Shown here: positions 13,420 through 58,086 of the stretch, one piece after another
Layout of the letters: the number at the start of each line of letters is the position of its first letter
Numbering within the stretch: the first letter of the stretch is position 1
Source of the DNA: Clostridia bacterium
GTDB lineage: Bacteria > Bacillota > Clostridia > Oscillospirales > QAKW01
NCBI GenBank assembly: GCA_017464525.1
Contig: JAFTZM010000041.1
Coordinates: 12,435 to 76,434 of the forward strand
Length of the DNA: 64,000 nt
Direction: 5' to 3'
Made by a program: the position numbers and the translations under genes
Notes under the pieces: generated by a model
Told to the model about the DNA's origin: nothing
Database searches by the model: none
What the model saw: the letters and a program-made list of their open reading frames with translations, nothing else

Positions 13420-13448
13420 GGAAGCATCAAACAACGGAGGTGCTTCTC

Positions 13449-15011
13449 ATGATCGGCAACATGATCGCCAAGCTGCGTACCAACGCCAATTTATCCCAGG
13501 AGCAATTCGGGGCGCTCTTCGGCATTTCCCGTCAATCGGTGCAGAAATGGGAGAGCGGTGCTTCGGTGCCGGAACTGGAAAAGCTCATTAACATCGCAAA
13601 ATATTTCGATGTTTCTCTGGATGCGCTGGTGCTGGAAAGCGACACCCGCATCACCGAGGAACTGCGCTACAACAAAGAGATCAAGCCTAAATACGCCAAC
13701 CTCCACGAATGGGAATCCTACTCCTCCAATCTGCGAACAGAGTATCGGCAATGCATCGAAGAGGGGCTGGATATCGCCGCCTACGGCGATACTTTCGAGG
13801 CGGTCTCACGCCTGCCCAAGGGGGAGATCAAAGAGAAACTGGGCGATACCCTCTTCGAGGTAGTGCTCCACGCCAAAACCGCCGAAGGCTACCGCTACGT
13901 TGAGCCCTCCACCTTAGAGGAAATTCGCGCCCTCTGCAAAGAGCCGGTTGCCCTCCCCGCTCCCACCGATTTGGAAGAAAAGCTCCACGGCGCCTGGCTG
14001 GGGCGAATCTGCGGCTGTATGCTCGGCAAGACAGTGGAAGGAATCCGCACTAACGAGCTGATCCCCTTCCTGCAGGAAACAGGCAACTACCCCATGCACC
14101 GTTACATTCTGAAAAAAGACCTCAACGAAGAAATCCTCAATAAATACAAATTCCGCTTTGCCAAGCGTTGCTATGCCGATGCCATTTGCGGAATGCCCCC
14201 GGACGACGACACCAACTACATGGTGCTGGCGCAAATGCTATTGGGAAAATATGGGCGGGATTTCACCTCCTACGACGTCTCCCGCATCTGGCTCTCCCTC
14301 CAGCCCAAGGATGCCTACTGCACCGCCGAGCGGGTGGCCATCTGCAACTTTGTGAAGGGCTATGAGCCGCCCCAATCGGCGATCTATAAGAACCCCTTCC
14401 GGGAATGGATCGGTGCCCAGATCCGGGGCGACTATTTCGGCTACATCAACCCCGGTGATCCTGCCATGGCCGCCGAAATGGCCTTCCGGGATGCCTCCAT
14501 CTCCCACGTAAAGAACGGCATCTACGGCGAAATGTGGGTAGCCGCCATGCTGGCAGCCGCCGCCTGCACCGGCGATATCAAGACCATCCTTGCCGCAGGG
14601 CTTTCGGAGATTCCCCACACCTCCCGCCTCCACGAAGCCGTCACCGACATCATCAAAGGCTACGAAGCAGGCATCTCCCAAGAGACCTGCTTTGCCGATA
14701 TCCACGCCCGCTACGATGAATACACCTCCCACGGCTGGTGCCACACCATCTCCAATGCCATGATCGTGGCCGCCGCCCTCCTATACGGTGAGGGAGACTA
14801 CGGAAGATCCATCTGCATGGCGGTGGAGACCGGCTTTGATACCGATTGCAACGGCGCAACAGTCGGCTCCATTCTGGGGATGGCCAAGGGTAAAGCCTAC
14901 ATTGGCGCCCAATGGACCGCCCCCATCCAGGATACCCTCCATACCACCATCTTCGGGGTGGATTCCGTCAAAATTTCTGACTGTGTCAAAAAAACATTGG
15001 AGCATATCTAA
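13449..15011 (+). CDS. XRE-type HTH domain fused to an ADP-ribosylglycohydrolase (ARH/DraG-family) domain
   Basis: The start was moved to the ATG at 13449, with GGAGG 8 nt upstream. N-terminus: IAKLRTNANLSQEQFGALFGISRQSVQKWESG. ARH motifs: GAWLGRICGCMLGKTVEG, DDDTNYMVLA, GFDTDCNGATVGSILGM. Confidence 0.8.
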   Translation: MIGNMIAKLRTNANLSQEQFGALFGISRQSVQKWESGASVPELEKLINIAKYFDVSLDALVLESDTRITEELRYNKEIKPKYANLHEWESYSSNLRTEYRQCIEEGLDIAAYGDTFEAVSRLPKGEIKEKLGDTLFEVVLHAKTAEGYRYVEPSTLEEIRALCKEPVALPAPTDLEEKLHGAWLGRICGCMLGKTVEGIRTNELIPFLQETGNYPMHRYILKKDLNEEILNKYKFRFAKRCYADAICGMPPDDDTNYMVLAQMLLGKYGRDFTSYDVSRIWLSLQPKDAYCTAERVAICNFVKGYEPPQSAIYKNPFREWIGAQIRGDYFGYINPGDPAMAAEMAFRDASISHVKNGIYGEMWVAAMLAAAACTGDIKTILAAGLSEIPHTSRLHEAVTDIIKGYEAGISQETCFADIHARYDEYTSHGWCHTISNAMIVAAALLYGEGDYGRSICMAVETGFDTDCNGATVGSILGMAKGKAYIGAQWTAPIQDTLHTTIFGVDSVKISDCVKKTLEHI

Positions 15012-21881: not shown

Positions 21882-24800
21882 TCAGGCACCCAGGATCTCA
21901 TCGATCTCCCGACCGGTGAGGTGATTTTTGGAGATGACCGTTTCCACCAACCGATCAATGGCCGGCTTATGGGCGGAAATGATCTCCACCGCCTTTTCCA
22001 GCTGGGCAGCTAAGATCCGGTTGACCGCCCGGCGGATCTCTCCGCTCTGATCAGCCCGGGGATCTGCCACGGCCAGGCCGAATTCCTCGTCCATACCGTA
22101 GGTGCACAGCAACTGCTGGGCCAGATGGGTAGCAGATTGCAGGTCGCCGCTGGGGCCGGTGGAAACACCGTCCTTTTCGCCATAGTAGACCAGCTCTGCC
22201 GCCCGACCGCCCAGAGAGGTACGGATCCGGGCCAACAGCTCATCCTTGGTATAGATGGCCTTGCCCTCGTTATCGCCGTGCTGCATATAGCCGCCATGGT
22301 TGCTGCGGGCGACCACTGTGAGATAAGAGGGGGTCTCGCCGCTGTGCCAGCAGATAAAGGCGTGACCGGCTTCATGGCGTGCCACCCGCTCCAGCTGGGA
22401 GATATCCCAATTTTTCTTTTCGCCGCTGTTGAAGGTTTCGAAGGCCTCCTCCAGAATGGCATCGGTCACCTTCTGGTTTCCGTCCCGGATGGACATTCTG
22501 AGGGCCAGCTCGATCACCGATTCCAGCTCGGCCAGGCTCATACCGGTGGAGCGCACCGCCAAATTATCAAACTTGGCTTCGCTGATCTCAAAGGCCGGAT
22601 TATGGGCGATCTTCAGCTTCAGATACTGCACCCGGTCATCCCGATCGGGCAGGTCGATATACACCCGGCGGTCAAAACGGCGCATCAGAGCAGGATCCAG
22701 GCTCTTTTCCCGGCCCGGCTCAATATCAAAATTGGTAGCAGCCAGCACAAATACTGGCTTGGAGGGATCGTTCTTAAAGCCATCCATTTCGGTCAGGAAG
22801 GCGGTGAGGGTGGCTTCAGCCGCCCCGGCATTATCGCCGCCCCGCCGCTCCTTGGCGATGGCATCGATCTCATCGATAAAGAGGATGGAGGGGGCATACT
22901 TCCGGGCGGTGCGGAAAAGCTCATGCACCTTTTCGGGACCTTCCCCTACATATTTCTTCAAAAATTGATTCCCCTCGGCGGTGATAAAGGTCACATCCGA
23001 CTCGCTGGCCATAGCCTTTGCCAGCAGCGTTTTACCGGTGCCCGGCGGGCCGTAGAGCAGCACGCCCTTGGGTGCCTGAACCCCGGTACGAAGGTACTTT
23101 TTGGGATTTTTCAGGTATTCCACAAAGTATTTCAGTTCTTTTTTGGCATCCTCTGCCCCGATCACCTGATCAAACCGCAGGTTGGGCTTGGATACATTGC
23201 TGAGCACATTTTCGGAATCGCCGGGATCCAGCGCCACCTTTAATGCAAAATCAAAGAGGCGGATCTCGGCACACTTGCCGCCCTCCGAAAGGGACTGGGC
23301 GGTTTCGAAGGTAACGATCTTATTGGATTTAGCCAGGTTGTTCATGCTGTTTTGCTGGTGTAGCTTGCGGCAGATCTCCTGCAGATCCCCCTCAAAGGTA
23401 TCTGTTGCAACGGAGATCACCCCCCGCACCCCCTGGCGCAGGAAGGAGATCCGCTCCTCGCTGTTATAGACCCGCTCGTCAGTCTCCAGCAGATAGATCG
23501 GCAGATCCCGGAATTTTTCCCGCACGAACCAGAAGAAATCCCGAGCCTTGGAGCGCACATCCTCCACATTGAGGACGCCGCCGTCTGCCTCCTCGCCGTT
23601 CAAAAGATCCAGCAGGATCAGCTGAACGTCCTCTTTTTTCAAAAGCTTTGCAGCCTCCTCGGGGTTCTCGGCGGAAAGAATATTGCAGAACCCGGCCTTG
23701 GCCCGGCAGCTCTCGGCGATCTGCTCCGAAGCAAAGACCAGAACCTCCGGCTTCTCCTGATGCCGGAAAAGGCTCATCAGCTCTTCATTCTCCTCCGGCA
23801 GCTCTACCCGGATCCGGATGGACTCGATATCATTCACATCGGTGGCCACGCTATCGGTGGAGACCAGCCGGAACAGCTCGTATAATTCATCATCAAAGAA
23901 GGCTTCGGCCCGGCTGCGCACCGTTCTGGCATCGGCAGCGCCGCCCTCGGCAAAAAGCAGGGCAGTATGTACCGTTTCATCGATCTCTACCTGAATGCCG
24001 ATCTCCTTTTCAAAGTTCCCGGCGTGGCGAAGCACCTCCCGCTTGGCAATATCCCGCAGATTATGAGCAGAGATATGGTTGAACATCACCACATTACCGG
24101 AAGCAAACCGGGAGCAGATGGCTGCCGGGAAGAAGGGGGCGCCGGTGGCGGGATTCACATCCTGCTGCAGAGCCTTCAGGATCACCTTCCGGGAAAGATC
24201 GGAAAAATCACCGGAATCGCTGTTTTCATAAAGGGGGCGCCCGGCATTGGTGGTAAAGATAATGATGGCATCCGAGAAGGAGACCTCCGTATCGGTGAAA
24301 TTATCCCGCAGGCGGCCGGCATCCAGCAACTGTAAAAAGAGGTGGATCACGCTGATATGCGCCTTTTCGATCTCATCGAAGAGCAGCACGCACTTAGGAT
24401 TTTTCTCCACAAACCCGGTGATGTTACCGGCCTTACCGTTTTTATAGACCTTATCGGAGCCGCAGAATTCGATGGTGGCTTCGTTATCGGCATATTCGCT
24501 CATATCTGCCCGCAGGAAGGGAAGCTCCAGAATTTCAGCCGCCTTTTCGGCCAGGAAGGTCTTCCCCACGCCCGGAGGGCCTGCAAAGAGATAGGTGGCC
24601 CGGGGGCGCACCCGCTTTTTATCGGTCATGGAAAGCAGCTCGCCCTGGAAGTAGCCGGTGGTAAAGACACTCACCGCATTATCCTGGCCGAACACCGCTT
24701 CGGAAAGGGCCTTCTGGATCTCCTTCACCCGATGGATGGTGGCAGCAACAGCAGCCTTAGATCCGCCCGGTTCTTCAGCAGGCTTTTCTTCCTTTTTAGC

Positions 24801-25259
24801 AGGCGCTGCTTCCTCTTCCATGATCATCTGCACTTTTTCAGGAGCAGCACCGCCCGCCTTGTTCACGGACAGGCATTGCTTCAAAATAGCGCTGGGCTCC
24901 TGCAGCAGGCAATCCAGCATCAGATCGGCAGTGACCTCTGCAAGCCCCAGCTCTTTGGCACGGCCCTTGGCCACCATCAGCTTGGTCTGGAAGTAAATAT
25001 TATCCCAAGCGCTCATCTGGTGATCTTTGATCTGCGCCAGCAGATCCCGCTGCAGCCGGGGCAGATCCAGATGGGCGGCCTCCGCCATCTTCAAAAAGCC
25101 GGTGAGCTCCTGCTTACTTTCATTTTTATACTTCGGATCGGTCACATAGGTGATCACCGTCACCATCAACTTTTCCGCTGTGATGGTACCGCCCTCTCCG
25201 ATCTTTCTTGCACTTTCGATAAACAGATCCAATAATCTGCTGTTTTGCATTTCAGCCAT
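21882..25259 (-). CDS. Soluble multi-domain AAA+ protease: N-terminal helical domain + ClpA/B-D2-type AAA + REC-like domain + FtsH-type AAA + M41 zinc peptidase, with no TM segment
   Basis: 1125 aa. The first AAA module has GPPGVGKT (aa 227-233) and VLLFDEIEKAHISVIHLFLQLLDAGRLRD (Clp D2 pattern). Residues about 505-600 read VLVFAS...LILLDL...IYLLET (receiver-like). The second AAA module has GPPGTGKT (737-743), ILFIDEIDA and LDPALMRRFDRRV (FtsH-type SRH). The peptidase shows HEAGHA (22362-22376) and GPSGDLQSAT. Confidence 0.8.
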   Translation of the reverse strand: MAEMQNSRLLDLFIESARKIGEGGTITAEKLMVTVITYVTDPKYKNESKQELTGFLKMAEAAHLDLPRLQRDLLAQIKDHQMSAWDNIYFQTKLMVAKGRAKELGLAEVTADLMLDCLLQEPSAILKQCLSVNKAGGAAPEKVQMIMEEEAAPAKKEEKPAEEPGGSKAAVAATIHRVKEIQKALSEAVFGQDNAVSVFTTGYFQGELLSMTDKKRVRPRATYLFAGPPGVGKTFLAEKAAEILELPFLRADMSEYADNEATIEFCGSDKVYKNGKAGNITGFVEKNPKCVLLFDEIEKAHISVIHLFLQLLDAGRLRDNFTDTEVSFSDAIIIFTTNAGRPLYENSDSGDFSDLSRKVILKALQQDVNPATGAPFFPAAICSRFASGNVVMFNHISAHNLRDIAKREVLRHAGNFEKEIGIQVEIDETVHTALLFAEGGAADARTVRSRAEAFFDDELYELFRLVSTDSVATDVNDIESIRIRVELPEENEELMSLFRHQEKPEVLVFASEQIAESCRAKAGFCNILSAENPEEAAKLLKKEDVQLILLDLLNGEEADGGVLNVEDVRSKARDFFWFVREKFRDLPIYLLETDERVYNSEERISFLRQGVRGVISVATDTFEGDLQEICRKLHQQNSMNNLAKSNKIVTFETAQSLSEGGKCAEIRLFDFALKVALDPGDSENVLSNVSKPNLRFDQVIGAEDAKKELKYFVEYLKNPKKYLRTGVQAPKGVLLYGPPGTGKTLLAKAMASESDVTFITAEGNQFLKKYVGEGPEKVHELFRTARKYAPSILFIDEIDAIAKERRGGDNAGAAEATLTAFLTEMDGFKNDPSKPVFVLAATNFDIEPGREKSLDPALMRRFDRRVYIDLPDRDDRVQYLKLKIAHNPAFEISEAKFDNLAVRSTGMSLAELESVIELALRMSIRDGNQKVTDAILEEAFETFNSGEKKNWDISQLERVARHEAGHAFICWHSGETPSYLTVVARSNHGGYMQHGDNEGKAIYTKDELLARIRTSLGGRAAELVYYGEKDGVSTGPSGDLQSATHLAQQLLCTYGMDEEFGLAVADPRADQSGEIRRAVNRILAAQLEKAVEIISAHKPAIDRLVETVISKNHLTGREIDEILGA

Positions 25260-25326
25260 TTTGATTACCCTCGCTATTTATGGTATGATATATTATTATA
25301 TAAACAAAATACGACATTGTCAATTT

Positions 25327-26478
25327 TTAATTGCTCCACAAGGAGCAGATCGCCCGGATCAGCTTTTCTTCGCCGATGGTATCCACCTCGTCCACCACCT
25401 GAATGCCCATATCCTCGGCCCGGGTGTGGATATATTCCCCCTTCAGCTTCATTTTTTCCAGCTCGGAGGCAACAAGAACTCTTTTGGCATATTTTCCGCC
25501 GAACCGGCGGGCAACGGTATTGAGCTTATACAGCTCGTCCACCTCCATCTGCCCGTTTTTGCAGGAAATGAAGATAGGTACCAGCCCCTTCATCAGCAAA
25601 ACATCCACTTCATTGCGCACCTGAGATTCCTCATCCCCGGAAAAGCCATGCCAATCGATCATCCCACCGCACAAAATATCGTTATAAAGCGGGCGCCCTT
25701 TTTTATCAGTCTGCCGTGAAGCAAGAAGGGTGATCTTCAGTTCCAGAATGGTGCCAGCCTTGGAAAGGCAGCGCTGCACCTGCTCATTTTTATAGATGAT
25801 CCGCCCCTCCTCGCAGCGGATCACCGCCGCCAGTTCCAATTCCTTCAATAGCGCCGGATCCGGCATCTGGGGCGGCTGCTCCAGCCCCGCCAGCAGCGTG
25901 ATCTGGCTGTTCCAATGGGTGGCATCCCGGCGGCAAATCTCCCACATATCGTTAATATCTGCGCAGAAATCCTCACTGAAATCCCAGCGATAGGTACCCA
26001 GCGTATCCTCTTCCTCATAAACGATCCGGCCGCCGTAGGCCCAGATGTTCTCTTCAATCGTCATGACAGCCGGCTCCGCCGCCATCAGGTTTCCATCGGC
26101 ATCGCAATCGGTCAGACTACCGTTGCGAATATTAAAGCGGTGCAGCTGCACCCGCTCGCTGCCGAAGTATTCAAATAAAATGCCGATGGCCACTAAGTAA
26201 AGATCATCGCCCCCCGCCAGATCGAAGGTGCAGACTCCATACTTTTCCACCAGCGCCATCAGCTCTTCTATAATATTGGTCAGGTTGTTTTTATTCACCA
26301 CCCGGTGATCAAATTCCACCGGGATCTCCCGGCCCCGGGCGATCCGTTGATAGTTTTCTATGGCCCGCAGCATTTGCTTGCGGTTACTGCCGATGAAGAT
26401 CACATGATCCGGCCGGCAGAGCAGCGTGCTCACGATATTTTCTATGGCATTATCATCAAAAAATTCAATAACGGTCAT
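25327..26478 (-). CDS. CARF-domain protein with a C-terminal PD-(D/E)xK-like nuclease fold (Card1/Can2 / DUF1887-like)
   Basis: 383 aa from MTVIEFFDD. The track's upstream extension lies in AT-rich promoter DNA. The N-terminal Rossmann-like region has HVIFIGSN and FDLAGGDDLYLVA. The C-terminus has EVDVLLMKGLVPIFISCKNG, a D-x13-S-x-K motif. I assign the family from memory of the DUF1887/Card1 architecture. Confidence 0.55.
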   Translation of the reverse strand: MTVIEFFDDNAIENIVSTLLCRPDHVIFIGSNRKQMLRAIENYQRIARGREIPVEFDHRVVNKNNLTNIIEELMALVEKYGVCTFDLAGGDDLYLVAIGILFEYFGSERVQLHRFNIRNGSLTDCDADGNLMAAEPAVMTIEENIWAYGGRIVYEEEDTLGTYRWDFSEDFCADINDMWEICRRDATHWNSQITLLAGLEQPPQMPDPALLKELELAAVIRCEEGRIIYKNEQVQRCLSKAGTILELKITLLASRQTDKKGRPLYNDILCGGMIDWHGFSGDEESQVRNEVDVLLMKGLVPIFISCKNGQMEVDELYKLNTVARRFGGKYAKRVLVASELEKMKLKGEYIHTRAEDMGIQVVDEVDTIGEEKLIRAICSLWSN

Positions 26479-26508
26479 TTTTCTATCCGATCCAACATTT
26501 TTTCTTCT

Positions 26509-26537
26509 ATTATAAAGGTCTTTAGATACAAAATCAA
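26509..26537 (-). promoter_or_regulatory. Promoter of the CARF / AAA-protease operon
   Basis: On the minus strand: TTGATT (26537-26532), a 17-nt spacer, then TATAAT (26514-26509), about 30 nt upstream of the ATG at 26478. Confidence 0.55.
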
Positions 26538-26930
26538 GAAAAAAAATAACCCCTGGCCGGTTGTGTCTTTCACCCACATCCAAGCCAAGGGTCATTGCTG
26601 TTCACTCTTGATATCTAACATCCTTTTAACCTCTCTTTCTACGGTTTTCTGCTGCCTTCTTCATCCGAATGCTCCCACACGTCTTTCTACCTTCCTCTTA
26701 AAGTGAGTTTCTCTCATGCGATAAATACTTCCTTTTGAAGGCTGCAGATGTTGTTCGGTTCTATTTTTTTAGCCCCGAACCGTCAGGCTGCTTACCTGTA
26801 CATTGGTATCACCCTTTCTTTGACTATATAATAGCATAATTTTTATCCACTTTCAATTCGCAATTTGTATAAAATTACCCGTTTTTATTTATATAAAACA
26901 CAGAAATTACGCGCTCCATCCAATTTTTTA

Positions 26931-26959
26931 TTGACACCGCAGTGTTTTTCTGTTATACT
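26931..26959 (+). promoter_or_regulatory. Near-consensus promoter driving a non-coding unit
   Basis: TTGACA (26931-26936), a 17-nt spacer, then TATACT (26954-26959). Confidence 0.65.
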
Positions 26960-26965
26960 GAATAT

Positions 26966-27214
26966 GTTGAGCGTATAAAGACCCCGCCGATGTCATGCAT
27001 CGGCGGGGTCTTTCAGCCTGTCAATGCGAAGTATTGGATGTAATCCACCGTAGGTGGCATGTAATCAATCCGAAGGAAGAAACATACAAAGCTTACGCTT
27101 TGATGACATACAGTTCACAAAGCGAACTGATTACATACTCGCTAACGCGAGATTACATACCAATCCTTCGGATTGGATAAAAAAAGAACGAAGCGATTGC
27201 TTCGTTCTTTTTTT
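26966..27214 (+). ncRNA. Candidate structured small RNA (about 250 nt) with four ATGTAATC/GATTACAT octamers
   Basis: It is bracketed by the promoter at 26931-26959 and the terminator at 27179-27214. A 16-bp hairpin lies at 26977-27013. Octamers occur at 27038, 27059 (ATGTAATC) and at 27129, 27151 (GATTACAT). Short hairpins are interleaved: CCACC-GTA-GGTGG, CAAAGC-TTAC-GCTTTG, CTCGC-TAAC-GCGAG and CAATCC-TTCG-GATTGG. I see no RBS-led ORF. Confidence 0.45.
27179..27214. terminator. Bidirectional terminator shared by the candidate sRNA (+) and the tRNA-Val gene (-)
   Basis: A7, then AGAACGAAGC-GATT-GCTTCGTTCT, then T7. Confidence 0.8.
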
Positions 27215-27302: not shown

Positions 27303-27331
27303 ATTATACAATACGGGGGCTGAATTGTCAA
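27303..27331 (-). promoter_or_regulatory. Consensus promoter for tRNA-Val
   Basis: On the minus strand: TTGACA (27331-27326), a 17-nt spacer, then TATAAT (27308-27303). The -10 element ends about 12 nt before the mature tRNA 5' end. Confidence 0.7.
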
Positions 27332-41235: not shown

Positions 41236-42978
41236 TTAATCGTCGTCCTTCATCTTATCCTTTTCGCTCAGAAGGTCGAAGGTTACCAAGCAATGATGGG
41301 TCTTGGCCAGATTATTCCGTTCCGGAGCGTAGACAAAACCTTCCGCACGCATATACGCATTCCAGCGGCGATGCTCCAGCCGGCGCAGGGCCCAGAGCTC
41401 CTTTTCGCCCCTTTTTTCGGGGGGCAGCTCAATGCCGGGCATTCCGCAGGCGATCTTCATCCGTTTATGAAGAGCAGAGGCCACAGAGGAGCGGTAATTA
41501 TATTCATACCGCCAGAAGGACTCCTCATCCCCCCATTTCAGATGGCGGGCCAGACCTTCCTCCTCCAAATCGCAATCCAGCACCACCTCATAGGAATAGG
41601 TGGACTTCAGATCGCCGATAAAGCTGATCTCATAGGATTGGCCGGAATGGTTGGTGATGCCGGTCAGGGCGGCGCTCTTTTCGGAATTATACACGATGGC
41701 CTGAATAATGGGCGTGATCCCCATCTGCTCAAAGAGCACCCGCAGCCGGACAGCCACCTTAATATTCAGCTCATCATTCCCCAATGCCACCATTACATAG
41801 GTCACATCCTTCAGAGAACGGATGGCCTCGGTAAATTCGGCGGTCTCCACATCCATATCGCCATGAACAGTGATCTGGTGCATGGCCTCGCCGTCATCGG
41901 TAAAGTTGCCGTTTTGCGCCATCAACTCGGGGCAGAGAGCCCGGAACTTGGAGGGCGCCTTTTGATCCTTATCGAAGGAATCGATATGGACCTGATAGCC
42001 ATCCATCTGGCAGAACCAGGCCAGGGCCTTGGTCATTTCGGTGCCGTGGTTGCCCATGCCTACCACAACGGCAGAGATCCTGCCATCCTTGGCATTTTCA
42101 AAGATCTTCAGGCCGGTTTCGTTCAGGTTGCGATAGATGAGGGACTGCACCTCATTGATGCGGCGCACCTTGATACAGCCGCTCTCTGCATTGGCCAGCA
42201 GCATTTCCGCCTCCACCTGAGTGGAAAGAACATAAAGATGGGTATTTTCCCGGGTGCGGTATAGCTCCATCAGCTTTAAGGCCTGGGAGATATTCTCCGA
42301 TTGATCGGCGCCCATGGTAAAGAAATGAAGGGGGCTGCTTTTACTGTGCATGGAAAAATTGATGGTCACAATATCCTTTTTAAAGCACACCGCGCCCAGT
42401 TCCCGGGCCTTTTCCACCATCTCATAGCTTTGCTCTTCCTCTTTTTCAAAGACATCGCTGAACACAAACATCCGTTTACCGGGCTGCCGGGAGATGCTTT
42501 CTGCCAGCGCCAGGGTCTTTTCGTTCAGCTCGGAAAAAATATAGGCTTCGGTTCTGAAATTGAATAAAAACTTCTGGTAAGCGGTGATGTTTTTGAAAAA
42601 GGACAGTACAAATCCGAAGGTCAGCACCGGCGCCAGCACAAACAGAATGGATAAAAAGATGCTATAGCCGGAATAAAGGGCCGGGGAAAGTGCCGCGACG
42701 CTTTGGGCGAGAAATTCAAAATCACTGTTCACCACAAAGAGGCAGATCATATTATAGATCGAAAGGAACAGCGCCTCTAAAAGACCGCCGCCGTTGGCCT
42801 TAGTTGTATTAATATAAATAGGAATAAACAGCAGCAGCGCAGATACCAGCACCCCTGCAAAGAGAATATTAGAGGGGGTAAACAGCCGGCCGCTGCGATA
42901 TTTTTTGCCGGTGAGAAATACCCCCGCCAATGCAACCAGCATCACCGCAATGGCAGCAAAAAAGCAAAAATTCCACAT
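41236..42978 (-). CDS. Membrane protein: 4 N-terminal TM helices + Rossmann (TrkA-N-like, GMGNHG) domain + C-terminal RyR domain
   Basis: 580 aa. ISAVVVGMGNHGTEMTKAL (GxGxxG). The C-terminus LEHRRWNAYMRAEGFVYAPERNNLAKTHHCLVTFDLLSEKDKMKD matches the RyR-domain pattern (EHxRW...GW/F.Y....d...K.Hp.Lv.fd.L...eK.kD). Confidence 0.6.
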   Translation of the reverse strand: MWNFCFFAAIAVMLVALAGVFLTGKKYRSGRLFTPSNILFAGVLVSALLLFIPIYINTTKANGGGLLEALFLSIYNMICLFVVNSDFEFLAQSVAALSPALYSGYSIFLSILFVLAPVLTFGFVLSFFKNITAYQKFLFNFRTEAYIFSELNEKTLALAESISRQPGKRMFVFSDVFEKEEEQSYEMVEKARELGAVCFKKDIVTINFSMHSKSSPLHFFTMGADQSENISQALKLMELYRTRENTHLYVLSTQVEAEMLLANAESGCIKVRRINEVQSLIYRNLNETGLKIFENAKDGRISAVVVGMGNHGTEMTKALAWFCQMDGYQVHIDSFDKDQKAPSKFRALCPELMAQNGNFTDDGEAMHQITVHGDMDVETAEFTEAIRSLKDVTYVMVALGNDELNIKVAVRLRVLFEQMGITPIIQAIVYNSEKSAALTGITNHSGQSYEISFIGDLKSTYSYEVVLDCDLEEEGLARHLKWGDEESFWRYEYNYRSSVASALHKRMKIACGMPGIELPPEKRGEKELWALRRLEHRRWNAYMRAEGFVYAPERNNLAKTHHCLVTFDLLSEKDKMKDDD

Positions 42979-44421: not shown

Positions 44422-47400
44422 TTAAATCTTTTTCAGGAAGAAGGTGAGCACCCGGCGATCCGCCGCTGCCCGGTAGGTATAGCGGTTATCGGTACGCACG
44501 CCGGTCTCAAGGGCTGCAAACCGCAAGGCTTCGCCCAGCTTGCCTTCCTCGATCAGCAGTCTTTCTGCCTCGGCAAAGGCCGCATCGGAGCCGAATTTCA
44601 GGGAGATATTCAGCTGACCCCGAGCCAGGCTTTCGCAGATGATACTGCGGATCCGGCCGAGATCACAGTGTTCCAGGAACAGCCCGTGGCGGCGGTGGTA
44701 ATTGCACTTGACCGCCGTACATTCCGGCAGGGTATAGGGAACATCGGGGGTATGAGCATCTATCCGCAGCACCTCTTCGGTAGTGATACAGAAGAGGCTG
44801 TAGTCCACCGCATCGGAGAGGTTCTTTTCCGATTTGGTATCAGAACCGTCCCCCCAGGTAACATCCAGATGATAATAATCTCCCTCCAGCTTCACCAGGT
44901 TCCAGGCATGGGTGGTGCTGGTCACATAGGTACATTCGATGCCCAGCGCATTGAGCAAAAACTGCAGCGCTTTGGCATAGCCGGCGCAGACCGCCTTTTT
45001 ATTCACGAACACGCCGTAGATAGAGCGGAGGTCGTCTGTTACATTTCTGCGGGCCTCCTTGGGGATCTTCCGCTGGCGCTCCAGGCCGAGAGTATCGTAG
45101 TCCACCAAGGTGATGATGTTTTCGAATACCCGCTGCACCACCTCAAAATCGCTCATGGTATCGGTCACGGAATTCAGGAAGGGGCGCACCGCCTCCTCCA
45201 GCTTCTGCTGCCGCTGCTCCACCTCTTCGGGGGGCATACAGTACTCCAGCCGGATCTCCTTCAGCTCCTCGGTCTGGGGATCATAGGAGAAATCCGCATT
45301 ATACTTATACCAATAGATCTCCGGGTGGTCGGTCTCGATGCAATCCAGGATCTTCCGCAGCTGCCCCTGCTTCACCGGCAGGTTGAAGGGAATGACCTTC
45401 TGCTGATTTTCGATGGCATCCAGCAGCAGATCGTAGGCCTCCTGCTCCGGTCCGGCCAGCTGACCATGGGCAAAGGCGGGCAGAGTTTCCGTATTCCGCT
45501 GGATGGGACCCCGGATGGCCTCTTCGGCGGTGGGGATCACCGGTTCTTTCTTGGGGCGCCCGCCGCCGGTGGGCGGGGGAACCTCATCATCGGCGCCGGG
45601 AAGGCCCACGCCGCTATCAAAGGGGGTGATCACCGTCATTGCTCCGCAATATTCAGGGGCCAAGGGGGTCTCGGGATCCATAAAGGGGGTCATCCGGGTA
45701 ATGACCGTGCCGGTGGAGAAGGGATAATTGGCCCGGTAACGCAGGAAGCCGCGGCCGTATTCATCCTCCCGGCAGGCGGTGATGATCTCGGTGCGCTTAG
45801 CCAGGGCGGGCTCATTGATGAGGTAGGCATACTGCACCTCTACCCACTTGGCCATTCCTTCATAGACCTCCAGTTCCAGATCTCCGTATTTCCGGCGGAT
45901 CTTCCGGGCATTCCAATGGGTATACTGCCAGATATGGGTCAGCTCATGAGCCATAGTAAGGATGGATGCCATCCGGGGAGAGCCGTTCTCTACCAGCAAG
46001 GTAAAGTTATTATGCTTATCCCGGATCGCCACACCCAGCACCCGGCCATCCTGCCGGGGGGTGGGGGTAAAGTTATCCCCCAACCGTTTATGAAGGGTTC
46101 TGGCATTGACCATCTCCACCTTCACGCCCACATTCAGGCGGATGCCGAAGAAGGACTCCATATTGCGCTTCACATCGGCAAAGATCTTTTTAAATTCCTC
46201 ACCGGATCGGATGGCGGTCTTACCGCAATGGATACAGCGGTCCCGCCCATCGGCCAGGGTCTCATATTCCACGCCGAAGATCTCGGTGCCGCAGAAATCA
46301 CAATAGCGAGCATCCGGCTTTCCGGGACGGAAGGTGGCCTCGATGAGGGCGGCGATATTCTTGCCCTCTCTGGCTTTCCCTAAGGGATTCACTCCAAGGC
46401 CCAGCTGAGCCAGATATTCCCGGGTAGCCCGGGGATCAATACTGCCCGGCTCATTCACATCGCCGAAGAGCAGATAATACCGCTCATGGTAGGGCTTGCG
46501 GGGTGGGATCACACCAAAAAGCTCCTGCTGCCCATCGGGTGCGGCCTTGGTCTCGCTTTCGCCGGGGGCATTGATCTCGGGATCCACAGGATCTTCGGCC
46601 CCCTCCGGTACCTCGGGGATCTCAGGGGTCTCAGGCGTTTCGGGTGTCTCGGGCGTTTCGGGTGTTTCAGGGGTCTCCGGGATCTCGGGCGTTTCGGGTG
46701 TCTCCTCTTTGGGCTTCCGCTTGAACCAGTTCTTGATCCGCTCCATCAGAGGATTCTTCTTTTTCTTCTTAGGTGTCTCCCCGGCGGGTGTATCCTCAAA
46801 GGTCACCGGCGGCGGAGGCTCAGGAGGCGGATTGAGGCTATTGGCCAGAGTGGTGCCGTGCCAATCCAGATAATCAAACATGATCTCCAGGATCCGCTGC
46901 AGATTCCGCTCCACCGCAATGGTGAGACCCAGATCCAGCTGGCTGTCCTCAATAATATAGATGGATTGGGGCTGCAGGGTACAGCCCTCCCCTTCCAGAG
47001 AATAAGTAAGGGGCATTTCGGCCTGACCGGGCGTTACGGCCACGATAAAGGCCTGATTTTCCGCAAAGAGGGTCTTAAAGATCTCGTTGAAGAGCATGGC
47101 AACGGTCAGCCGCACCTGATCCCCCAGCCCCTCCGCAGGCAGATCGATCCGCAGGATCTCTTTATTCCGATAGAGGCGGACGGGGATGCCCTTGCCCTCG
47201 AAGGAGGTCTTTTTGGCGGTGGTGAAATCGTGGTAACGGTCCATCTGCAGGAAGCCGGGGGTCTCCACCCGGATATCCGCATATTCATGCACCAGCTTCA
47301 CCCCGGCCACATCCTTCACAGCCCCCACCGTATCGGAGGGCTGCAGACCCAGCAGGGTATATTGCCGCAGCTGGCGGTAGGAGGGGCGGCCGTTGATATG

Positions 47401-49893
47401 ATCGGCGGCACGGCGCACCAGCACCTGCCCATCAGCTGTCAGATACTGCATCTCATAATACTTGCCGCCGAAGGTGAAGAACTGGCCCGGCAGGTATCTC
47501 TGATAGACGTGCCCGCTCAGCTCGGCGCCCAGATAATGCTTCTGCCCCTTTTCGTCCTCGGTGACATAGCTGGCAGAGCGCAGCTCAGCCACAAACCCGG
47601 CAAAGAACTGCGGGTTATAGATGGCATAGGTAGTCTCCATCCGGCCCAGTTTCAGATTAAAGGACTCGGCGGTATACAACAGCTTGGCGGTAACGGTAAG
47701 GCCGGCCAGAGAGAGGCTCTTTTCGGCGGCCTCGGCCACCGCCTGCCTATAATCGGTGCTGAGGGCGGCGCTTTCGGCCACCGGCGCATAGCACCGATAG
47801 ATCTCATACCACAGCTGCTTGGGCAGATCGTAGACGGTGATCCCCAGCAGGGAAAGCTCCTTTTTCAGCACCTCTTCCCCCACCGGCCGGGTGCTCATCA
47901 TCAGCAGCAGCCGCAGTACGGTGTTCCGATGGGTACGGGCATAATCCGCCACGATATAGGGGATCGCCTTGGGGTCGGTCTCAAAGATCGAGGCGTTATC
48001 TGCCATATAATCCTTCAGCAGATAATCCTGAGAGATCACATTGATAAAGCCTTGCTCGGAGGTACGGGTGGAAAAATTCCGGAGGATCTCGAACATATTA
48101 AAGGCTTCATCCTCCACGGTGAAGAAGTTGTTCTTCTCCACCCCGGCGCTCCAGAAATTGGGGGAGGTCCGGAAGAATTCATCCATCGCCTCCTGATTGG
48201 TGGGCAGGCCGGCATAGCGGGTAAGCTCGTAATAATACTGCCGGTCGATCCACCGCATATCGGTGACCGGGAAGGCCTCGCCGCCGTACCATTCGGTCTT
48301 GGCGATCTGGTTTTTCAGGGCGGCAAAGGAAAGCTCGGTGCCAAAGCCCAGATAACGGGAGATATTGGGCATCAACCGATGGTGGAGATAATCCTTATCT
48401 GCCTCCCAGCACATATAGGACGAGGTGCCCTTATGCTTATTGGTGGCGCTGACCTCGGTGATGGGGGACATGAGGATATGAGACATGGCATCCACCAGAC
48501 CGTCGCAGTTCTTATCGCACATACAGTAGACGATCTCGGAGCGGCAGCGCTTGATCAGCAGGTTCAGCCCGATCTGGGCGGTGGTGATCAGTTTGGAGGG
48601 CTCGATGATGACTACAAACCCCACCTGCTCCAGAAATTCCGCATTGGCTTCATGGAGGCGGGTATTCAACACATCGGATCGGGTGATAATGCCGATATCG
48701 GGGGTTCCGCCCTCCTGATCCAGCACCTGCACCTCCCACATAAAGGGGATATTGGTCACCGTACCAATGCCCTCCCCGATCCAATCCTTGATATCCTCCT
48801 CGATGGCATGGCGGCCCAGCACCACCAGCACCTTGCGATGGCTGAGCAACGCCCGGTTCATGGGATAAAAGGCATAGGGGATCAGATCCTTATAGAAGGG
48901 GTTATTAAAAAGGATGCTTCTTCCCCGCAGCAGATCCAGAGCGGAATAAAGGTAATTATGATCAATGGCAAAGCCGGTCTGATTCAAGGCCTTGATATAG
49001 GTGGCAAAGCCGGTGATCTTGGGGTCCTCATCCTTTTCCAGCTCCTGCAGGATATCCTCGGTGGTAAGGCTATAGGAGAGGGCGCTGTTCAGCCCGGTGT
49101 TCTCCGCCAGCAGCTTATCCTTGAAAAGATTACGCAGGAACTTGCGCAGCAGGGAATAATTGACCATGCGGAAGGCTTCGTCGTCCTCCCCCATCACGGT
49201 ACCGTATTCCCCTTGGGTCATACCGTCCAGATAGAAGAACAGCTCCCCCAGGATCAGGATGCCGAAAACCGGATAGAACACCGCCTGCAGGATCCCGCTG
49301 CGGAACATCTCGCAGCTGACCAGCATCAGCACCGCAGAGATACAGACTGCTCCGTAATAGAAGGTCTTTAAGAAGCTCCGCACCTGCGCATAGCTATCCT
49401 TCAGGCACCAGAAGTTCCGCTCAAAGAAATACCGGTAAAAGACCGAAGCGATCTTGGTATGCACCTTTCCGTCCGGCTTCACCGCAGAACGGATCATGGC
49501 GATGCAGAATTTCTTTAGCATCAGATAAACAATGATAATGACCGTATTGGCAATAAAGAAGATCCAGAAATTCAGGTTCAGGGATCGGATGATATCCTGG
49601 ATCCCGTTGCTGAGCCATTGGAAGAATTCGGCCAGAAAATCCGGCATCCAGGAAATGGATGCAAGGCCGGCGATCCAGCCGGGGATCTTTTGGATCAGAT
49701 CGATCAGCCAATCATTGATGGGGTGCATCATCAGCATCACCAGCAGCACATACACCAGCGCAATGATGGGCATGGCAAACTGCCGGCTGCGGATATTCTT
49801 TTCAATATTGACCTTTTTGCTTGCAAAGCACAGAATGAAGAAGGGCAGGATGGCAACGATCATTTTCAGAACATTCAGAACCGTATTAATCAT
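44422..49893 (-). CDS. Giant polytopic membrane protein (1823 aa): about 5-6 N-terminal TM + about 900-aa unknown region + (T/I/V)PE repeat linker + zinc ribbon + HExxH metallopeptidase-like module + transglutaminase-like Cys-His-Asp module
   Basis: The TM region spans aa 1-235. The TPETPEIPETPETPETPETPETPETPEIPEVPE linker is at 46603-46707. CDFCG...CIHCG lies at about 46222-46310. MAHELTHIWQ places HELTH at 45934-45948. In AVCAGYAKALQFLLNALGIE...THAWNLV...YYHLDVTWGD, the Cys is at 44986-88, the His at 44908-10 and the Asp at 44863-65. Confidence 0.8.
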   Translation of the reverse strand: MINTVLNVLKMIVAILPFFILCFASKKVNIEKNIRSRQFAMPIIALVYVLLVMLMMHPINDWLIDLIQKIPGWIAGLASISWMPDFLAEFFQWLSNGIQDIIRSLNLNFWIFFIANTVIIIVYLMLKKFCIAMIRSAVKPDGKVHTKIASVFYRYFFERNFWCLKDSYAQVRSFLKTFYYGAVCISAVLMLVSCEMFRSGILQAVFYPVFGILILGELFFYLDGMTQGEYGTVMGEDDEAFRMVNYSLLRKFLRNLFKDKLLAENTGLNSALSYSLTTEDILQELEKDEDPKITGFATYIKALNQTGFAIDHNYLYSALDLLRGRSILFNNPFYKDLIPYAFYPMNRALLSHRKVLVVLGRHAIEEDIKDWIGEGIGTVTNIPFMWEVQVLDQEGGTPDIGIITRSDVLNTRLHEANAEFLEQVGFVVIIEPSKLITTAQIGLNLLIKRCRSEIVYCMCDKNCDGLVDAMSHILMSPITEVSATNKHKGTSSYMCWEADKDYLHHRLMPNISRYLGFGTELSFAALKNQIAKTEWYGGEAFPVTDMRWIDRQYYYELTRYAGLPTNQEAMDEFFRTSPNFWSAGVEKNNFFTVEDEAFNMFEILRNFSTRTSEQGFINVISQDYLLKDYMADNASIFETDPKAIPYIVADYARTHRNTVLRLLLMMSTRPVGEEVLKKELSLLGITVYDLPKQLWYEIYRCYAPVAESAALSTDYRQAVAEAAEKSLSLAGLTVTAKLLYTAESFNLKLGRMETTYAIYNPQFFAGFVAELRSASYVTEDEKGQKHYLGAELSGHVYQRYLPGQFFTFGGKYYEMQYLTADGQVLVRRAADHINGRPSYRQLRQYTLLGLQPSDTVGAVKDVAGVKLVHEYADIRVETPGFLQMDRYHDFTTAKKTSFEGKGIPVRLYRNKEILRIDLPAEGLGDQVRLTVAMLFNEIFKTLFAENQAFIVAVTPGQAEMPLTYSLEGEGCTLQPQSIYIIEDSQLDLGLTIAVERNLQRILEIMFDYLDWHGTTLANSLNPPPEPPPPVTFEDTPAGETPKKKKKNPLMERIKNWFKRKPKEETPETPEIPETPETPETPETPETPETPEIPEVPEGAEDPVDPEINAPGESETKAAPDGQQELFGVIPPRKPYHERYYLLFGDVNEPGSIDPRATREYLAQLGLGVNPLGKAREGKNIAALIEATFRPGKPDARYCDFCGTEIFGVEYETLADGRDRCIHCGKTAIRSGEEFKKIFADVKRNMESFFGIRLNVGVKVEMVNARTLHKRLGDNFTPTPRQDGRVLGVAIRDKHNNFTLLVENGSPRMASILTMAHELTHIWQYTHWNARKIRRKYGDLELEVYEGMAKWVEVQYAYLINEPALAKRTEIITACREDEYGRGFLRYRANYPFSTGTVITRMTPFMDPETPLAPEYCGAMTVITPFDSGVGLPGADDEVPPPTGGGRPKKEPVIPTAEEAIRGPIQRNTETLPAFAHGQLAGPEQEAYDLLLDAIENQQKVIPFNLPVKQGQLRKILDCIETDHPEIYWYKYNADFSYDPQTEELKEIRLEYCMPPEEVEQRQQKLEEAVRPFLNSVTDTMSDFEVVQRVFENIITLVDYDTLGLERQRKIPKEARRNVTDDLRSIYGVFVNKKAVCAGYAKALQFLLNALGIECTYVTSTTHAWNLVKLEGDYYHLDVTWGDGSDTKSEKNLSDAVDYSLFCITTEEVLRIDAHTPDVPYTLPECTAVKCNYHRRHGLFLEHCDLGRIRSIICESLARGQLNISLKFGSDAAFAEAERLLIEEGKLGEALRFAALETGVRTDNRYTYRAAADRRVLTFFLKKI
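46603..46707. repeat. Tandem 9-bp (3-codon) repeat encoding the (T/I/V)PE linker
   Basis: About 11 imperfect units of GGTGTCTCG/GGCGTTTCG/GGGGTCTCA on the plus strand. Confidence 0.8.
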
Positions 49894-52036: not shown

Positions 52037-52075
52037 CCTGTTTTCACCTCCTCCGCAGCGTGGCTGCGGACTCTA

Positions 52076-55765: not shown

Positions 55766-55786
55766 AATCTGTTTCTCCTTTATTCG

Positions 55787-58003: not shown

Positions 58004-58086
58004 GAACATTCTCCTTTGCTGTTTTAAAATAAAACGGACGCCCTACTCATTTTTTCGCAAGGATCCGATTTTATTTGTATTTAATT

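What the first reader, a model, noticed from the sequence alone, without database searches (positions are those of the whole stretch)
25327..26537. Orphan CARF/Card1-like protein co-transcribed with the AAA-protease: possible cyclic-oligonucleotide-gated nuclease/protease pair without CRISPR
The gene has its own TTGATT-17-TATAAT promoter. It is followed after 67 nt, with no terminator, by the ClpB/FtsH-fusion gene. Its architecture is a Rossmann-like N-domain plus a C-terminal D-x13-S-x-K restriction-endonuclease-like motif. This matches Card1/Can2 (DUF1887) cA4-activated effectors of type III CRISPR systems. No cas genes, CRISPR array or cyclase are in the window. The acidic residue of the (D/E)xK triad is replaced by Ser, so the nuclease may be attenuated and the protein may act mainly as a sensor. 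CARF/SAVED sensors linked to proteases are established in other systems such as Lon-SAVED CalpL. A CARF-AAA-M41 pairing would be a new variant.
Basis: inference. Interest (0 to 1): 0.6.

Follow-up and report, generated by a model that had tools for sequence, protein, structure and literature searches.

The report
Orphan Can2-like nuclease beside AAA protease
The gene encodes a real Can2/Card1-type sensor-nuclease with an intact catalytic site but an altered, acidic ligand pocket, and it lies next to, though with its own promoter apart from, a soluble ClpB-FtsH protease, a pairing that recurs in about a quarter of related gut Clostridia.

Summary
Window 25327..26478 (-) encodes a 383-aa protein.

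- The Ser in "SCK" is a published Can2 variant, E-ExD-(E/S)CK, and it occurs in active enzymes. E246, E290, D292 and K307 are invariant here, so the nuclease is probably live.
- The pocket is what has changed. The cOA-binding signature NxTGGTK is replaced by D-L-(T/S)-G-G-(D/E)-(D/E).
- The 67-nt gap contains a perfect TTGACA-17-TATAAT promoter for the AAA-M41 gene. This promoter is conserved in other species, so obligate co-transcription is unsupported.

The AAA-M41 gene lies within 10 kb of the CARF gene in 22 of 80 species-level loci. The arrangements vary and the cases fall in at least 10 lineages. However, AAA-M41 mostly occurs without the CARF gene. Its usual partners are YbjN-like pairs, TM-TrkA-RyR, RyR, FHA/kinase and TIR-STAND genes.

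Relatives about 50% identical to the window protein sit as the last gene of type III-B Cmr operons, right after a CorA-like effector.

Verdict: this is an orphan member of a divergent Can2 clade. It is a new variant of a known kind. CalpL-like gating of the protease is unlikely.

The parts
25327..26478 (-). Gene for a 383-aa Can2/Card1-like protein (CARF + helical insertion + PD-(D/E)xK REase), stop codon included
   Evidence: ORF and start by alignment with 13 homologs. PADLOC CARF4--CARF_PDDEXK, E 2.4e-30, full length. AF2 pLDDT 92.7. Foldseek hits VC1899 (E 5e-22, TM 0.73), SthCan2 (TM 0.72-0.80), Cdn1, Card1, TbrCan2 and Can1.
26071..26478 (-). CARF (Rossmann) domain, residues 1-136
   Evidence: Secondary structure b1-a1-b2-a2-b3-a3-b4-a4 plus a beta-meander. 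Invariant residues E5, N14, G90, R114, D126 and G129.
26203..26214 (-). G89-G90-D91-D92: the position of the canonical Can2 'GGTK' of NxTGGTK, here with an acidic pair
   Evidence: Translation checked. Family counts: GG 77/77, first acidic position D/E 71/77, second D/E 75/77. Canonical motif from PMC10783487.
25558..25611 (-). REase catalytic strand pair E290-V-D292 ... S305-C306-K307
   Evidence: Translation EVDVLLMKGLVPIFISCK. E290, D292, S305, C306 and K307 invariant in 63 homologs. Ser present in 77/77.
26509..26537 (-). Promoter-like site TTGATT-17-TATAAT upstream of the CARF gene
   Evidence: 10 of 12 matches. This is a consensus match only.
25295..25323 (-). Perfect sigma-70 consensus TTGACA-17-TATAAT inside the 67-nt gap, upstream of AAA-M41; GAGGG RBS follows
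   Evidence: 12 of 12 matches. Perfect or 11/12 sites in the same place in L050, L073, L048 and L055.
21882..25259 (-). Gene for a 1125-aa soluble AAA-M41 protein: alpha-helical N-domain, Clp-D2-like AAA, REC-like domain, FtsH AAA, M41 Zn-protease
   Evidence: Pfam AAA, AAA_2 and Peptidase_M41. NCBIfam FtsH_fam 355 bits, below the 600 cutoff. No TM segment, two Walker A/B sets, HEAGH. AF2 domain map. Foldseek matches FtsH cytosolic regions at 34-37% identity.
41236..42978 (-). 4-TM + TrkA_N-like + RyR-like membrane protein. Same family as the commonest neighbour of the CARF and AAA-M41 genes in other genomes, here 16 kb away
   Evidence: HMM built from 23 neighbour proteins scores E 4e-189. 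TM segments. TrkA_N weak hit in a family member.

Best explanation
The gene encodes a self-contained, ligand-gated Can2/Card1-type nuclease from a divergent clade found mainly in Oscillospirales.

Shown:
- The protein has the Can2 fold.
- The catalytic constellation E-ExD-SCK is fully conserved.
- The CARF pocket is conserved but remodelled: D-L-(T/S)-GG-(D/E)-(D/E) replaces NxTGGTK.

Inferred:
- A dimer binds a small adenine-nucleotide-type signal that is not cA4. The ligand probably carries positive charge or is metal-bridged. Binding switches on metal-dependent cleavage of nucleic acid.
- The clade derives from, or exchanges with, type III-B CRISPR loci. There it is the last gene, directly after a CorA-like membrane effector.
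- The window copy is an orphan.

The window copy lies beside a soluble ClpB-D2/REC-like/FtsH-M41 unfoldase-protease. That gene has its own perfect promoter. In other genomes it is the hub of a variable conflict-type neighbourhood containing a YbjN-like pair, TM-TrkA-RyR, RyR, FHA plus Ser/Thr kinase, TIR-STAND-TPR, NUDIX, HD and ClpP genes.

The two proteins most likely act in the same stress or defence pathway, either as parallel effectors or with the protease turning over pathway components. The CARF protein probably does not serve as the protease's sensor.
For: Fold and family:
- establish the Can2/Card1 fold and profile match.

Catalytic site:
- E246, E290, D292, S305, C306 and K307 are invariant.
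- (E/S)CK is a described Can2 motif, and TbrCan2, which has Ser at that position, is active (PMC10783487).
- Cdn1 uses the same E/ExD/ExK network (PMC12825302).

Pocket:
- The pocket is remodelled yet conserved.

CRISPR-linked relatives:
- L001 and L058 are arranged Cas6-Cmr1-Cas10-Cmr3-4-5(-6)-CorA-like-CARF-Cas6-array (PADLOC). The L001 Cas10 carries GGDD.
- L133 and L135 have the same layout for proteins 50% identical to the window protein.

Linkage to AAA-M41:
- 22 of 80 loci have it within 10 kb.
- Spacers of 10-18 nt occur in L036 and L047. The order is reversed, with about 42-44-nt gaps, in L006 and L015. Elsewhere there are intervening genes or the opposite strand.
- These cases are spread over the family tree.

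AAA-M41 as hub:
-.

Separate promoter:
-.
Against: - There is no biochemical evidence; the ligand and substrate are unknown.
- About half of the CARF loci (39 of 80) contain none of the module genes. One clade sits in stable housekeeping synteny, PHP-GHMP kinase-CARF-YgjV-YfhO-SpoIIIA. This fits a non-defence role as well.
- Both proteins are unusually well conserved for defence genes: 40-50% identity for the CARF protein and about 60% for AAA-M41 across families.
- No hit in phage or plasmid collections, and no PADLOC system matches the pair.
- The loci are not phylogenetically independent. No genome-wide co-occurrence test could be run.
Confidence: 0.5

Rival explanations
1. First reader's model. 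The CARF protein is mainly a cyclic-oligonucleotide sensor with a crippled nuclease, and it gates the co-transcribed AAA-M41 protease. This would be a two-protein analogue of CalpL.
For: - The two genes are adjacent and on the same strand, with no terminator in the gap.
- They are tightly coupled (10-18 nt) in L036 and L047 and closely spaced in the reversed order (about 42-44 nt) in L006 and L015.
- ClpP and AAA-M41 recur near the CARF gene.
Against: - The catalytic residues are invariant, and the Ser variant is active in TbrCan2.
- The cOA motif NxTGGTK is not met.
- A perfect independent promoter precedes AAA-M41 here and in 3-4 other species.
- AAA-M41 lacks a CARF neighbour in 45 of 47 AAA-centred loci and in its 3 nearest homologs.
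- No cyclase is present in the window.
Confidence: 0.1
2. Housekeeping reading. The protein is a domesticated, metabolite-regulated nuclease in nucleic-acid metabolism or sporulation-stage physiology of Oscillospirales. Its proximity to AAA-M41, a proteostasis enzyme expressed from a strong constitutive promoter, reflects inherited synteny rather than a shared pathway.
For: - The window flanks are housekeeping genes: tRNA-Val, an amino-acid ABC transporter, PHO4, an amidase and RNase J-like genes.
- One clade shows conserved PHP-GHMP kinase-CARF-SpoIIIA synteny, with the CARF gene abutting or overlapping the kinase gene.
- Sequence conservation is high.
- 39 of 80 loci contain no module gene.
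- The gene is absent from the plasmid and phage collections.
Against: - Gene order around the CARF gene is otherwise poorly conserved. The top recurrent neighbours are the module genes, and they appear in shuffled orders across at least 10 lineages.
- Relatives lie inside Cmr/CorA loci.
- AAA-M41 neighbourhoods contain TIR-NACHT-TPR, NUDIX, HD and RyR genes.
Confidence: 0.2
3. Signal off-switch. In this clade the protein binds and degrades, or sequesters, the immune signal, taking the role that NrN, DEDD or SAM-AMP lyase play next to CorA. Orphan copies would buffer or terminate signalling.
For: - In L001, L058, L133 and L135 the gene occupies the position next to CorA. No NrN, DEDD or lyase gene was found in the sequence available.
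- Chi et al. report that CorA is obligately paired with a degradative enzyme (PMC10600005).
- The acidic pocket parallels the acidic substitutions that let Cas10 bind the cationic methionine moiety of SAM.
Against: - There is no homology to the known degraders.
- The contigs are short, so a degrader may lie outside the sequence held.
- A PD-(D/E)xK site facing a nucleic-acid channel is not an obvious dinucleotide hydrolase.
- The idea is untested.
Confidence: 0.15

Closest known systems
Can2/Card1 (DUF1887, CARF4 CARF-PD-(D/E)xK) type III CRISPR ancillary nucleases, e.g. SthCan2 7BDV, TresuCard1 6WXW, TbrCan2 8Q3Y, Cdn1 9U49
   Same: - Same three-part fold: CARF, insertion domain, REase.
- Same E-ExD-(E/S)CK catalytic motif.
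- Some family members are encoded in type III-B loci.
   Different: - The CARF motif NxTGGTK is replaced by D-L-(T/S)-GG-(D/E)-(D/E).
- Sequence similarity is very low: phmmer E 0.01-0.6, and profile E 2e-5 to VC1899 only.
- The window copy has no cas genes nearby.
- The CRISPR-linked relatives accompany CorA, a SAM-AMP-type effector, rather than cA4 effectors.
VC1899 of Vibrio cholerae (PDB 1XMX), the founding orphan DUF1887 protein
   Same: - Best structural and sequence match.
- It is an orphan, not CRISPR-linked.
- Its ligand site is reported as acidic/hydrophobic and unresponsive to cA4 (PMC7969007).
   Different: - VC1899 has ECK where this protein has SCK.
- Identity is only 19%.
- The taxon and gene neighbourhood differ.
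CalpL (SAVED-Lon) and other signal-gated protease effectors of type III systems
   Same: A nucleotide-sensor protein and an ATP-dependent-type protease are genomically associated.
   Different: - In CalpL the sensor and protease are one polypeptide, with a defined adjacent substrate.
- Here the sensor carries its own nuclease.
- The protease is a separate, independently promoted gene that mostly occurs without the sensor.
[quoted passage not shown] 2023)
   Same: Relatives of the window protein sit directly after a CorA-like gene in Cmr operons whose Cas10 carries GGDD.
   Different: - The partner here is a Can2-like protein, not a known degrader.
- The window itself has neither Cmr nor CorA.
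FtsH (AAA + M41 membrane protease) and ClpB/ClpA D2, for the neighbouring gene
   Same: - The C-terminal 445 aa match the FtsH cytosolic region at 34-37% identity, with HEAGH.
- The N-terminal AAA matches Clp D2.
   Different: - No TM anchor is present.
- There is an extra N-domain and a REC-like middle domain.
- The scores fall below the NCBIfam FtsH and ClpB cutoffs.

Membership tests
Can2/Card1 (DUF1887; CARF4 CARF-PD-(D/E)xK) | N-terminal CARF + insertion + C-terminal PD-(D/E)xK fold | tested here: met
   AF2 pLDDT 92.7. Foldseek: 1xmx E 5e-22, TM 0.73; 7bdv TM 0.72-0.80; 6xl1, 8q3y and 9u49 also match.
Can2/Card1 (DUF1887; CARF4 CARF-PD-(D/E)xK) | Profile match to family models | tested here: met
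   PADLOC CARF4--CARF_PDDEXK, E 2.4e-30 over residues 2-375. Pfam PF09002 scores 25.5 bits, just under the gathering cutoff of 26.4 for the window protein, but is recorded for many homologs.
Can2/Card1 (DUF1887; CARF4 CARF-PD-(D/E)xK) | REase motif E-ExD-(E/S)CK (PMC10783487) | tested here: met
   E246, E290-x-D292 and S305-C-K307 are invariant in 63 homologs; Ser is present in 77/77.
Can2/Card1 (DUF1887; CARF4 CARF-PD-(D/E)xK) | CARF motif NxTGGTK that binds cOA ('in all clades', PMC10783487) | tested here: not met
   The window has D-L-A-G-G-D-D. The family has D71/77-L-(T/S)67/77-GG-(D/E)71/77-(D/E)75/77.
Can2/Card1 (DUF1887; CARF4 CARF-PD-(D/E)xK) | Encoded in or next to a type III CRISPR-Cas locus | tested here: not met
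   The window has no array and no cas or cyclase hit among 44 ORFs. The feature is met for relatives L001, L058, L133 and L135 only.
Can2/Card1 (DUF1887; CARF4 CARF-PD-(D/E)xK) | cA4-activated DNase/RNase activity | not testable with these tools
   Requires biochemistry.
CalpL-like signal-gated protease systems | Sensor domain fused to, or obligately paired with, the protease | tested here: not met
   The genes are separate and each has its own promoter. A CARF gene is next to AAA-M41 in 2 of 47 AAA-centred loci and in 0 of 3 nearest homologs.
CalpL-like signal-gated protease systems | Cognate cOA synthase in the system | tested here: not met
   No Cas10 or CD-NTase hit in the window. The rest of the genome was not available.
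FtsH (for the neighbouring gene) | AAA + M41 with HExxH | tested here: met
FtsH (for the neighbouring gene) | N-terminal membrane anchor; equivalog score | tested here: not met
   Maximum 19-residue hydropathy is 1.2. TIGR01241 scores 355 bits against a cutoff of 600.
CorA-partner signal degraders (NrN / DEDD / SAM-AMP lyase) | Gene directly adjacent to CRISPR-associated CorA | tested here: inconclusive
   True for relatives L001, L058, L133 and L135, but not for the window gene. There is no homology to the known degraders, and no activity test was possible.

The most novel reading that the evidence does not exclude
This Can2-like clade has swapped the cA4 pocket for an acidic one that recognises a non-cOA adenine-nucleotide signal. 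Candidate signals are SAM-AMP in the Cmr/CorA loci and a TIR-derived ADPR-type signal in the RyR/TIR loci. Orphan copies such as the window's, together with the soluble ClpB-FtsH protease and the TM-TrkA-RyR membrane protein, would then form a CRISPR-independent nucleotide-signalling defence module in gut Oscillospirales.
Probability: 0.2. Interest if true: 0.8.

Novelty: new variant of a known kind. Interest (0 to 1): 0.55.

Why it matters
CARF-nuclease effectors are so far understood as cA4/cA6-gated. This clade keeps the nuclease but rebuilds the pocket. It sits beside CorA in type III-B loci and beside RyR, TIR and AAA-protease genes elsewhere. That would extend CARF sensing to other immune signals.

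The finding also offers a tractable candidate for a second SAM-AMP-responsive protein, or for a new kind of CorA partner. In addition, it flags a widespread, uncharacterised soluble ClpB-FtsH protease family in abundant gut Clostridia as a likely component of conflict systems.

If the housekeeping reading is right instead, the finding is an ordinary orphan DUF1887 gene.

Tried and rejected
- **Sequence-only PDB searches.** These gave only weak hits: phmmer E 0.01, profile E 2e-5. Fold comparison was needed.
- **Longer ORF.** The 422-aa ORF starting at 26595 was rejected because all homologs start at MTVIEF.
- **Rfam.** Only tRNA-Val was found. Nothing was detected in the roughly 650-nt upstream spacer.
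- **Mobile-element origin.** tblastn against plasmids and phages found no match.
- **Defence-system lookup.** PADLOC on 44 window ORFs gave only generic ABC/AAA hits.
- **Known CorA partners.** A search for NrN, DEDD or SAM-AMP lyase around L001 found IS66, EndoU, integrase and RHS genes instead.
- **Literature.**
  - No paper joins CARF with the RyR domain.
  - No paper joins Can2 with CorA adjacency.
  - A search on RyR/TrkA was unproductive.
- **'Dead nuclease' idea.** Rejected after reading PMC10783487.
- **Model coordinates.** These were not available to scripts. Pocket electrostatics and the distance of E315 to the active site could therefore not be measured.
Full report
**What is in the sequence**

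The minus strand carries an ORF ending at 25327. Alignment with 13 homologs shows that translation starts at the ATG at 26478 (MTVIEFFDD...). The product is 383 aa.

A TTGATT-17-TATAAT site lies at 26537..26509, matching 10 of 12 positions. Sixty-seven nucleotides after the stop codon comes the ATG of a 1125-aa ORF, 21882..25259 (-). The scan found no terminator-like hairpin in this gap.

The gap does contain a perfect TTGACA-17-TATAAT at 25323..25295, followed by a GAGGG ribosome-binding site. Wherever a long spacer separates the two genes in other species, the same perfect promoter precedes the AAA-M41 gene: 12/12 in L050, L073 and L048, and 11/12 in L055. In L073 and L048 the spacer also contains terminator-like hairpins after the CARF gene. 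The AAA-M41 gene is therefore its own transcription unit. Read-through from the CARF gene is possible but not required.

**What the protein is**

- PADLOC places it full-length in CARF4--CARF_PDDEXK, E 2.4e-30.
- Pfam Card1_endonuc scores 25.5 bits, just under the 26.4 cutoff.
- An AlphaFold2 model built on 63 homologs has pLDDT 92.7 and pTM 0.90.
- Foldseek against the PDB returns only Can2-family structures at the top:
  - VC1899, E 5e-22, TM 0.73
  - SthCan2 with cA4, TM 0.72-0.80
  - Cdn1, DysCan2, Card1, TbrCan2 and Can1

At sequence level the family is remote from the solved members: 14-19% identity, and profile E 2e-5 to VC1899 only.

**The nuclease site**

The motif reads E290-V-D292-x12-S305-C306-K307. 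E246 lies on the first REase helix.

- All of these residues are invariant in 63 homologs, and Ser is present in 77 of 77.
- Jungfer et al. define the Can2 REase motif as E-ExD-(E/S)CK. They show that in TbrCan2 the Ser equivalent to Glu308 of Card1 and Glu291 of SthCan2 takes part in outer-sphere Mn2+ coordination, while the ExD pair binds the two metals. TbrCan2 is an active DNase and RNase (PMC10783487).
- Cdn1 uses the same network of E274, E308, D310, E323 and K325 (PMC12825302).

The Ser is therefore a known variant and not evidence of attenuation. Strict conservation of the other ligands argues for a working active site.

**The sensor site**

The same paper states that all Can2 clades carry NxTGGTK in the CARF domain for cOA binding. 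This family has (F/I)-D-(L/I)-(T/S)-G-G-(D/E)-(D/E)-L. GG is present in 77/77 members. The 'TK' positions are D/E in 71/77 and 75/77. The window protein reads FDLAGGDDL.

The b1-a1 loop is also conserved and acidic: E5 in 77/77, F6, and D8 in 70/77. A pocket this conserved is under selection, but it is not a canonical cA4 pocket. This resembles the orphan VC1899, whose site is acidic/hydrophobic and unresponsive to cA4 (PMC7969007).

I could not measure pocket geometry because model coordinates were not exposed to scripts.

**Distribution and context of the CARF gene**

The big protein database holds 722 homologs. At least 439 GTDB species encode one, nearly all of them Oscillospirales MAGs from animal guts.

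I clustered ORFs in 80 species-level loci (±10 kb) and built HMMs for the recurrent neighbours. Counts of loci containing each neighbour:

| Neighbour | Loci (of 80) |
|---|---|
| AAA-M41 fusion | 22, after removing two generic FtsH hits |
| 4-TM + TrkA_N-like + RyR-like membrane protein | 20 |
| YbjN-like proteins, usually a tandem pair | 14 |
| Small RyR-domain proteins (PF02026, E 4e-37) | 10 |
| TIR-TPR proteins | 9 |
| ClpP | 6 |

Forty-one of the 80 loci hold at least one of these genes.

AAA-M41 is directly adjacent to the CARF gene in 8 loci.
- It lies downstream with 10-18-nt spacers in L036 and L047.
- It lies downstream with about 190-225-nt spacers in L048, L050, L055 and L073.
- It lies upstream, about 42-44 nt before the CARF gene, in L006 and L015.
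- Elsewhere it is separated by YbjN, TM-TrkA-RyR or TIR-TPR genes, or it lies on the opposite strand.

On a neighbour-joining tree these cases fall in at least 10 separate lineages. Chance placement of a single-copy gene within 20 kb of a 2-3 Mb genome would be below about 1%. The linkage is therefore real, although the loci are not independent.

**The reverse view**

Forty-seven metagenome loci were found with the unique middle region of AAA-M41. They show a CARF neighbour in only 2, L088 and L126. A YbjN-like pair lies upstream in about 12, and TM-TrkA-RyR or RyR genes occur in about 8. Many copies, including an abundant human-gut lineage, stand alone.

The three nearest homologs of the window's AAA-M41, at 64% identity, lie in two kinds of context:
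- FHA – Ser/Thr kinase – AAA-M41 – TM-TrkA-RyR – HTH – RyR – TIR-NACHT-TPR – NUDIX – HD – TIR (L128; L129 has the same core through TIR-NACHT-TPR)
- YbjN pair – AAA-M41 (L130)

AAA-M41 is thus a hub with many alternative partners, and the CARF nuclease is one optional partner. The window also encodes a TM-TrkA-RyR family member at 41236..42978 (-), 16 kb away. A 2026 preprint shows that PF02026 RyR domains bind or cleave TIR-made cADPR signals. This gives the RyR/TIR/NUDIX neighbourhoods a nucleotide-signalling flavour. That link is an inference by association only.

**CRISPR-linked relatives**

A k-mer scan found genuine CRISPR arrays next to the CARF homolog in L001, L058 and L026.

In L001, PADLOC identifies Cas6, Cmr1, Cas10, Cmr3, Cmr4 and Cmr5, then a CorA-like protein (E 6e-77), then the CARF homolog, a second Cas6 and a 9-repeat array. 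The Cas10 is 491 aa, carries a GGDD motif and has no HD domain.

L058, L133 (P0005) and L135 (P0004) have the same layout. Their CARF proteins are 49-50% identical to the window protein and rank among its best hits. On the tree, L001 and L058 form one small clade next to the window's clade.

CorA-type III-B systems signal with SAM-AMP. Chi et al. report that CorA is obligately paired with NrN, DEDD or a SAM-AMP lyase (PMC10600005). None of these was found in the sequence available around L001.

Chi et al. also note that SAM-binding Cas10s replace basic residues with acidic ones, because the methionine moiety is cationic. The TK to (D/E)(D/E) change in this CARF pocket follows the same logic. 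This is a lead, not a test.

**Other contexts of top homologs**

- TraG/VirD4 (– ClpP) – CARF in L132 and L136.
- A stable housekeeping block, PHP – GHMP kinase – CARF – YgjV – YfhO – SpoIIIA, in L134 and L137.

**The neighbouring protein**

The AF2 model has mean pLDDT 79. It gives the following domain map:

| Residues | Feature |
|---|---|
| 1-132 | all-alpha N-domain |
| 135-165 | disordered linker |
| 167-466 | Clp-D2-like AAA |
| 480-644 | five-stranded REC-like alpha/beta domain, with D551 nearly invariant |
| 647-675 | beta-hairpin |
| 700-1124 | FtsH AAA plus M41 |

Both Walker A/B sets and HEAGH are intact, and there is no TM segment. The C-terminal part matches FtsH cytosolic structures at 34-37% identity. 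It scores below the NCBIfam FtsH and ClpB equivalog cutoffs. It is therefore a soluble FtsH-like fusion and not FtsH proper.

**Window-wide check**

The window holds no CRISPR array. No Cas, CD-NTase or other cyclase hit was found among 44 ORFs. The only hits were generic ABC/AAA matches. The flanks are housekeeping genes.

**Conclusion**

The mechanistic reading, however, needs to be inverted. The nuclease looks intact and the sensor pocket is the part that has diverged.

The protease is separately promoted and mostly independent of the CARF gene. A CalpL-like sensor-protease pair is therefore unlikely; I put it at about 0.1.

The best-supported reading, at about 0.5, is an orphan, self-contained, ligand-gated Can2-like nuclease. 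It belongs to a clade that also serves CorA-type III-B systems. It is co-localised with a ClpB-FtsH protease that belongs to a variable RyR/TIR/YbjN conflict neighbourhood. A housekeeping role (about 0.2) and a signal-degrading role (about 0.15) remain open.

Noticed in passing
window 44422..58009 (-): Four large co-directional ORFs of 740, 1229, 716 and 1823 aa. The 1229-aa protein has a Tubulin_2 (PF13809) domain, E 6e-54. The other three have no Pfam or PADLOC hit. This may be an uncharacterised tubulin-like system.
   Followed up: no
window 41236..42978 (-): 580-aa protein with 4 N-terminal TM helices and a C-terminal RyR-like region. It belongs to the family that most often neighbours the CARF and AAA-M41 genes elsewhere (HMM E 4e-189). 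Here it is unlinked, 16 kb away.
   Followed up: partly
window 13440..15011 (+): A 523-aa fusion of an HTH_3 domain with an ADP-ribosylglycohydrolase. This is an unusual regulator-enzyme fusion, and it is of interest given the ADPR-signalling flavour of the RyR/TIR neighbourhoods.
   Followed up: no
window 26540..27213: About 650 nt between the tRNA-Val terminator and the CARF promoter, with no convincing ORF and no Rfam hit. The stretch contains promoter-like sites (26856..26828, TG-extended) and GC-rich hairpins near 27010-26975 and 26790-26755.
   Followed up: no
window 27303..27331 (-) and 25295..25323 (-); L050, L073, L048: The region holds two perfect 12/12 sigma-70 consensus promoters, one before tRNA-Val and one before AAA-M41. 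The AAA-M41 promoter is conserved as a perfect consensus in three other species. This suggests very strong or repressor-controlled expression.
   Followed up: partly
window 21882..25259 (-), residues 480-644: The middle domain of AAA-M41 models as a REC-like alpha/beta fold with a nearly invariant Asp551, but it lacks the other receiver signature residues. The nearest homologs are preceded by FHA and Ser/Thr kinase genes.
   Followed up: partly
L001 25..1602; L130 6730..7717: YbjN-like proteins of about 160 aa, often in tandem pairs, accompany AAA+ genes. They occur upstream of AAA-M41 in many loci. One occurs next to a SpoVK-like AAA ATPase beside the L001 Cmr locus.
   Followed up: partly
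L026 292..6933: Several short CRISPR-like arrays (repeat ...CACTACACACCGAGAGGTGTCTAAAAC) lie between a 1141-aa protein, whose only Pfam hit is a cold-shock domain, and a 496-aa protein of unknown function. They sit directly upstream of a CARF homolog. The CRISPR type was not determined.
   Followed up: no
window 25759..26070 (-), residues ~197-207: The window protein lacks about 26 aa of the helical insertion domain present in most homologs (383 aa against about 410). The frame is intact, and other lineages also have short variants.
   Followed up: partly
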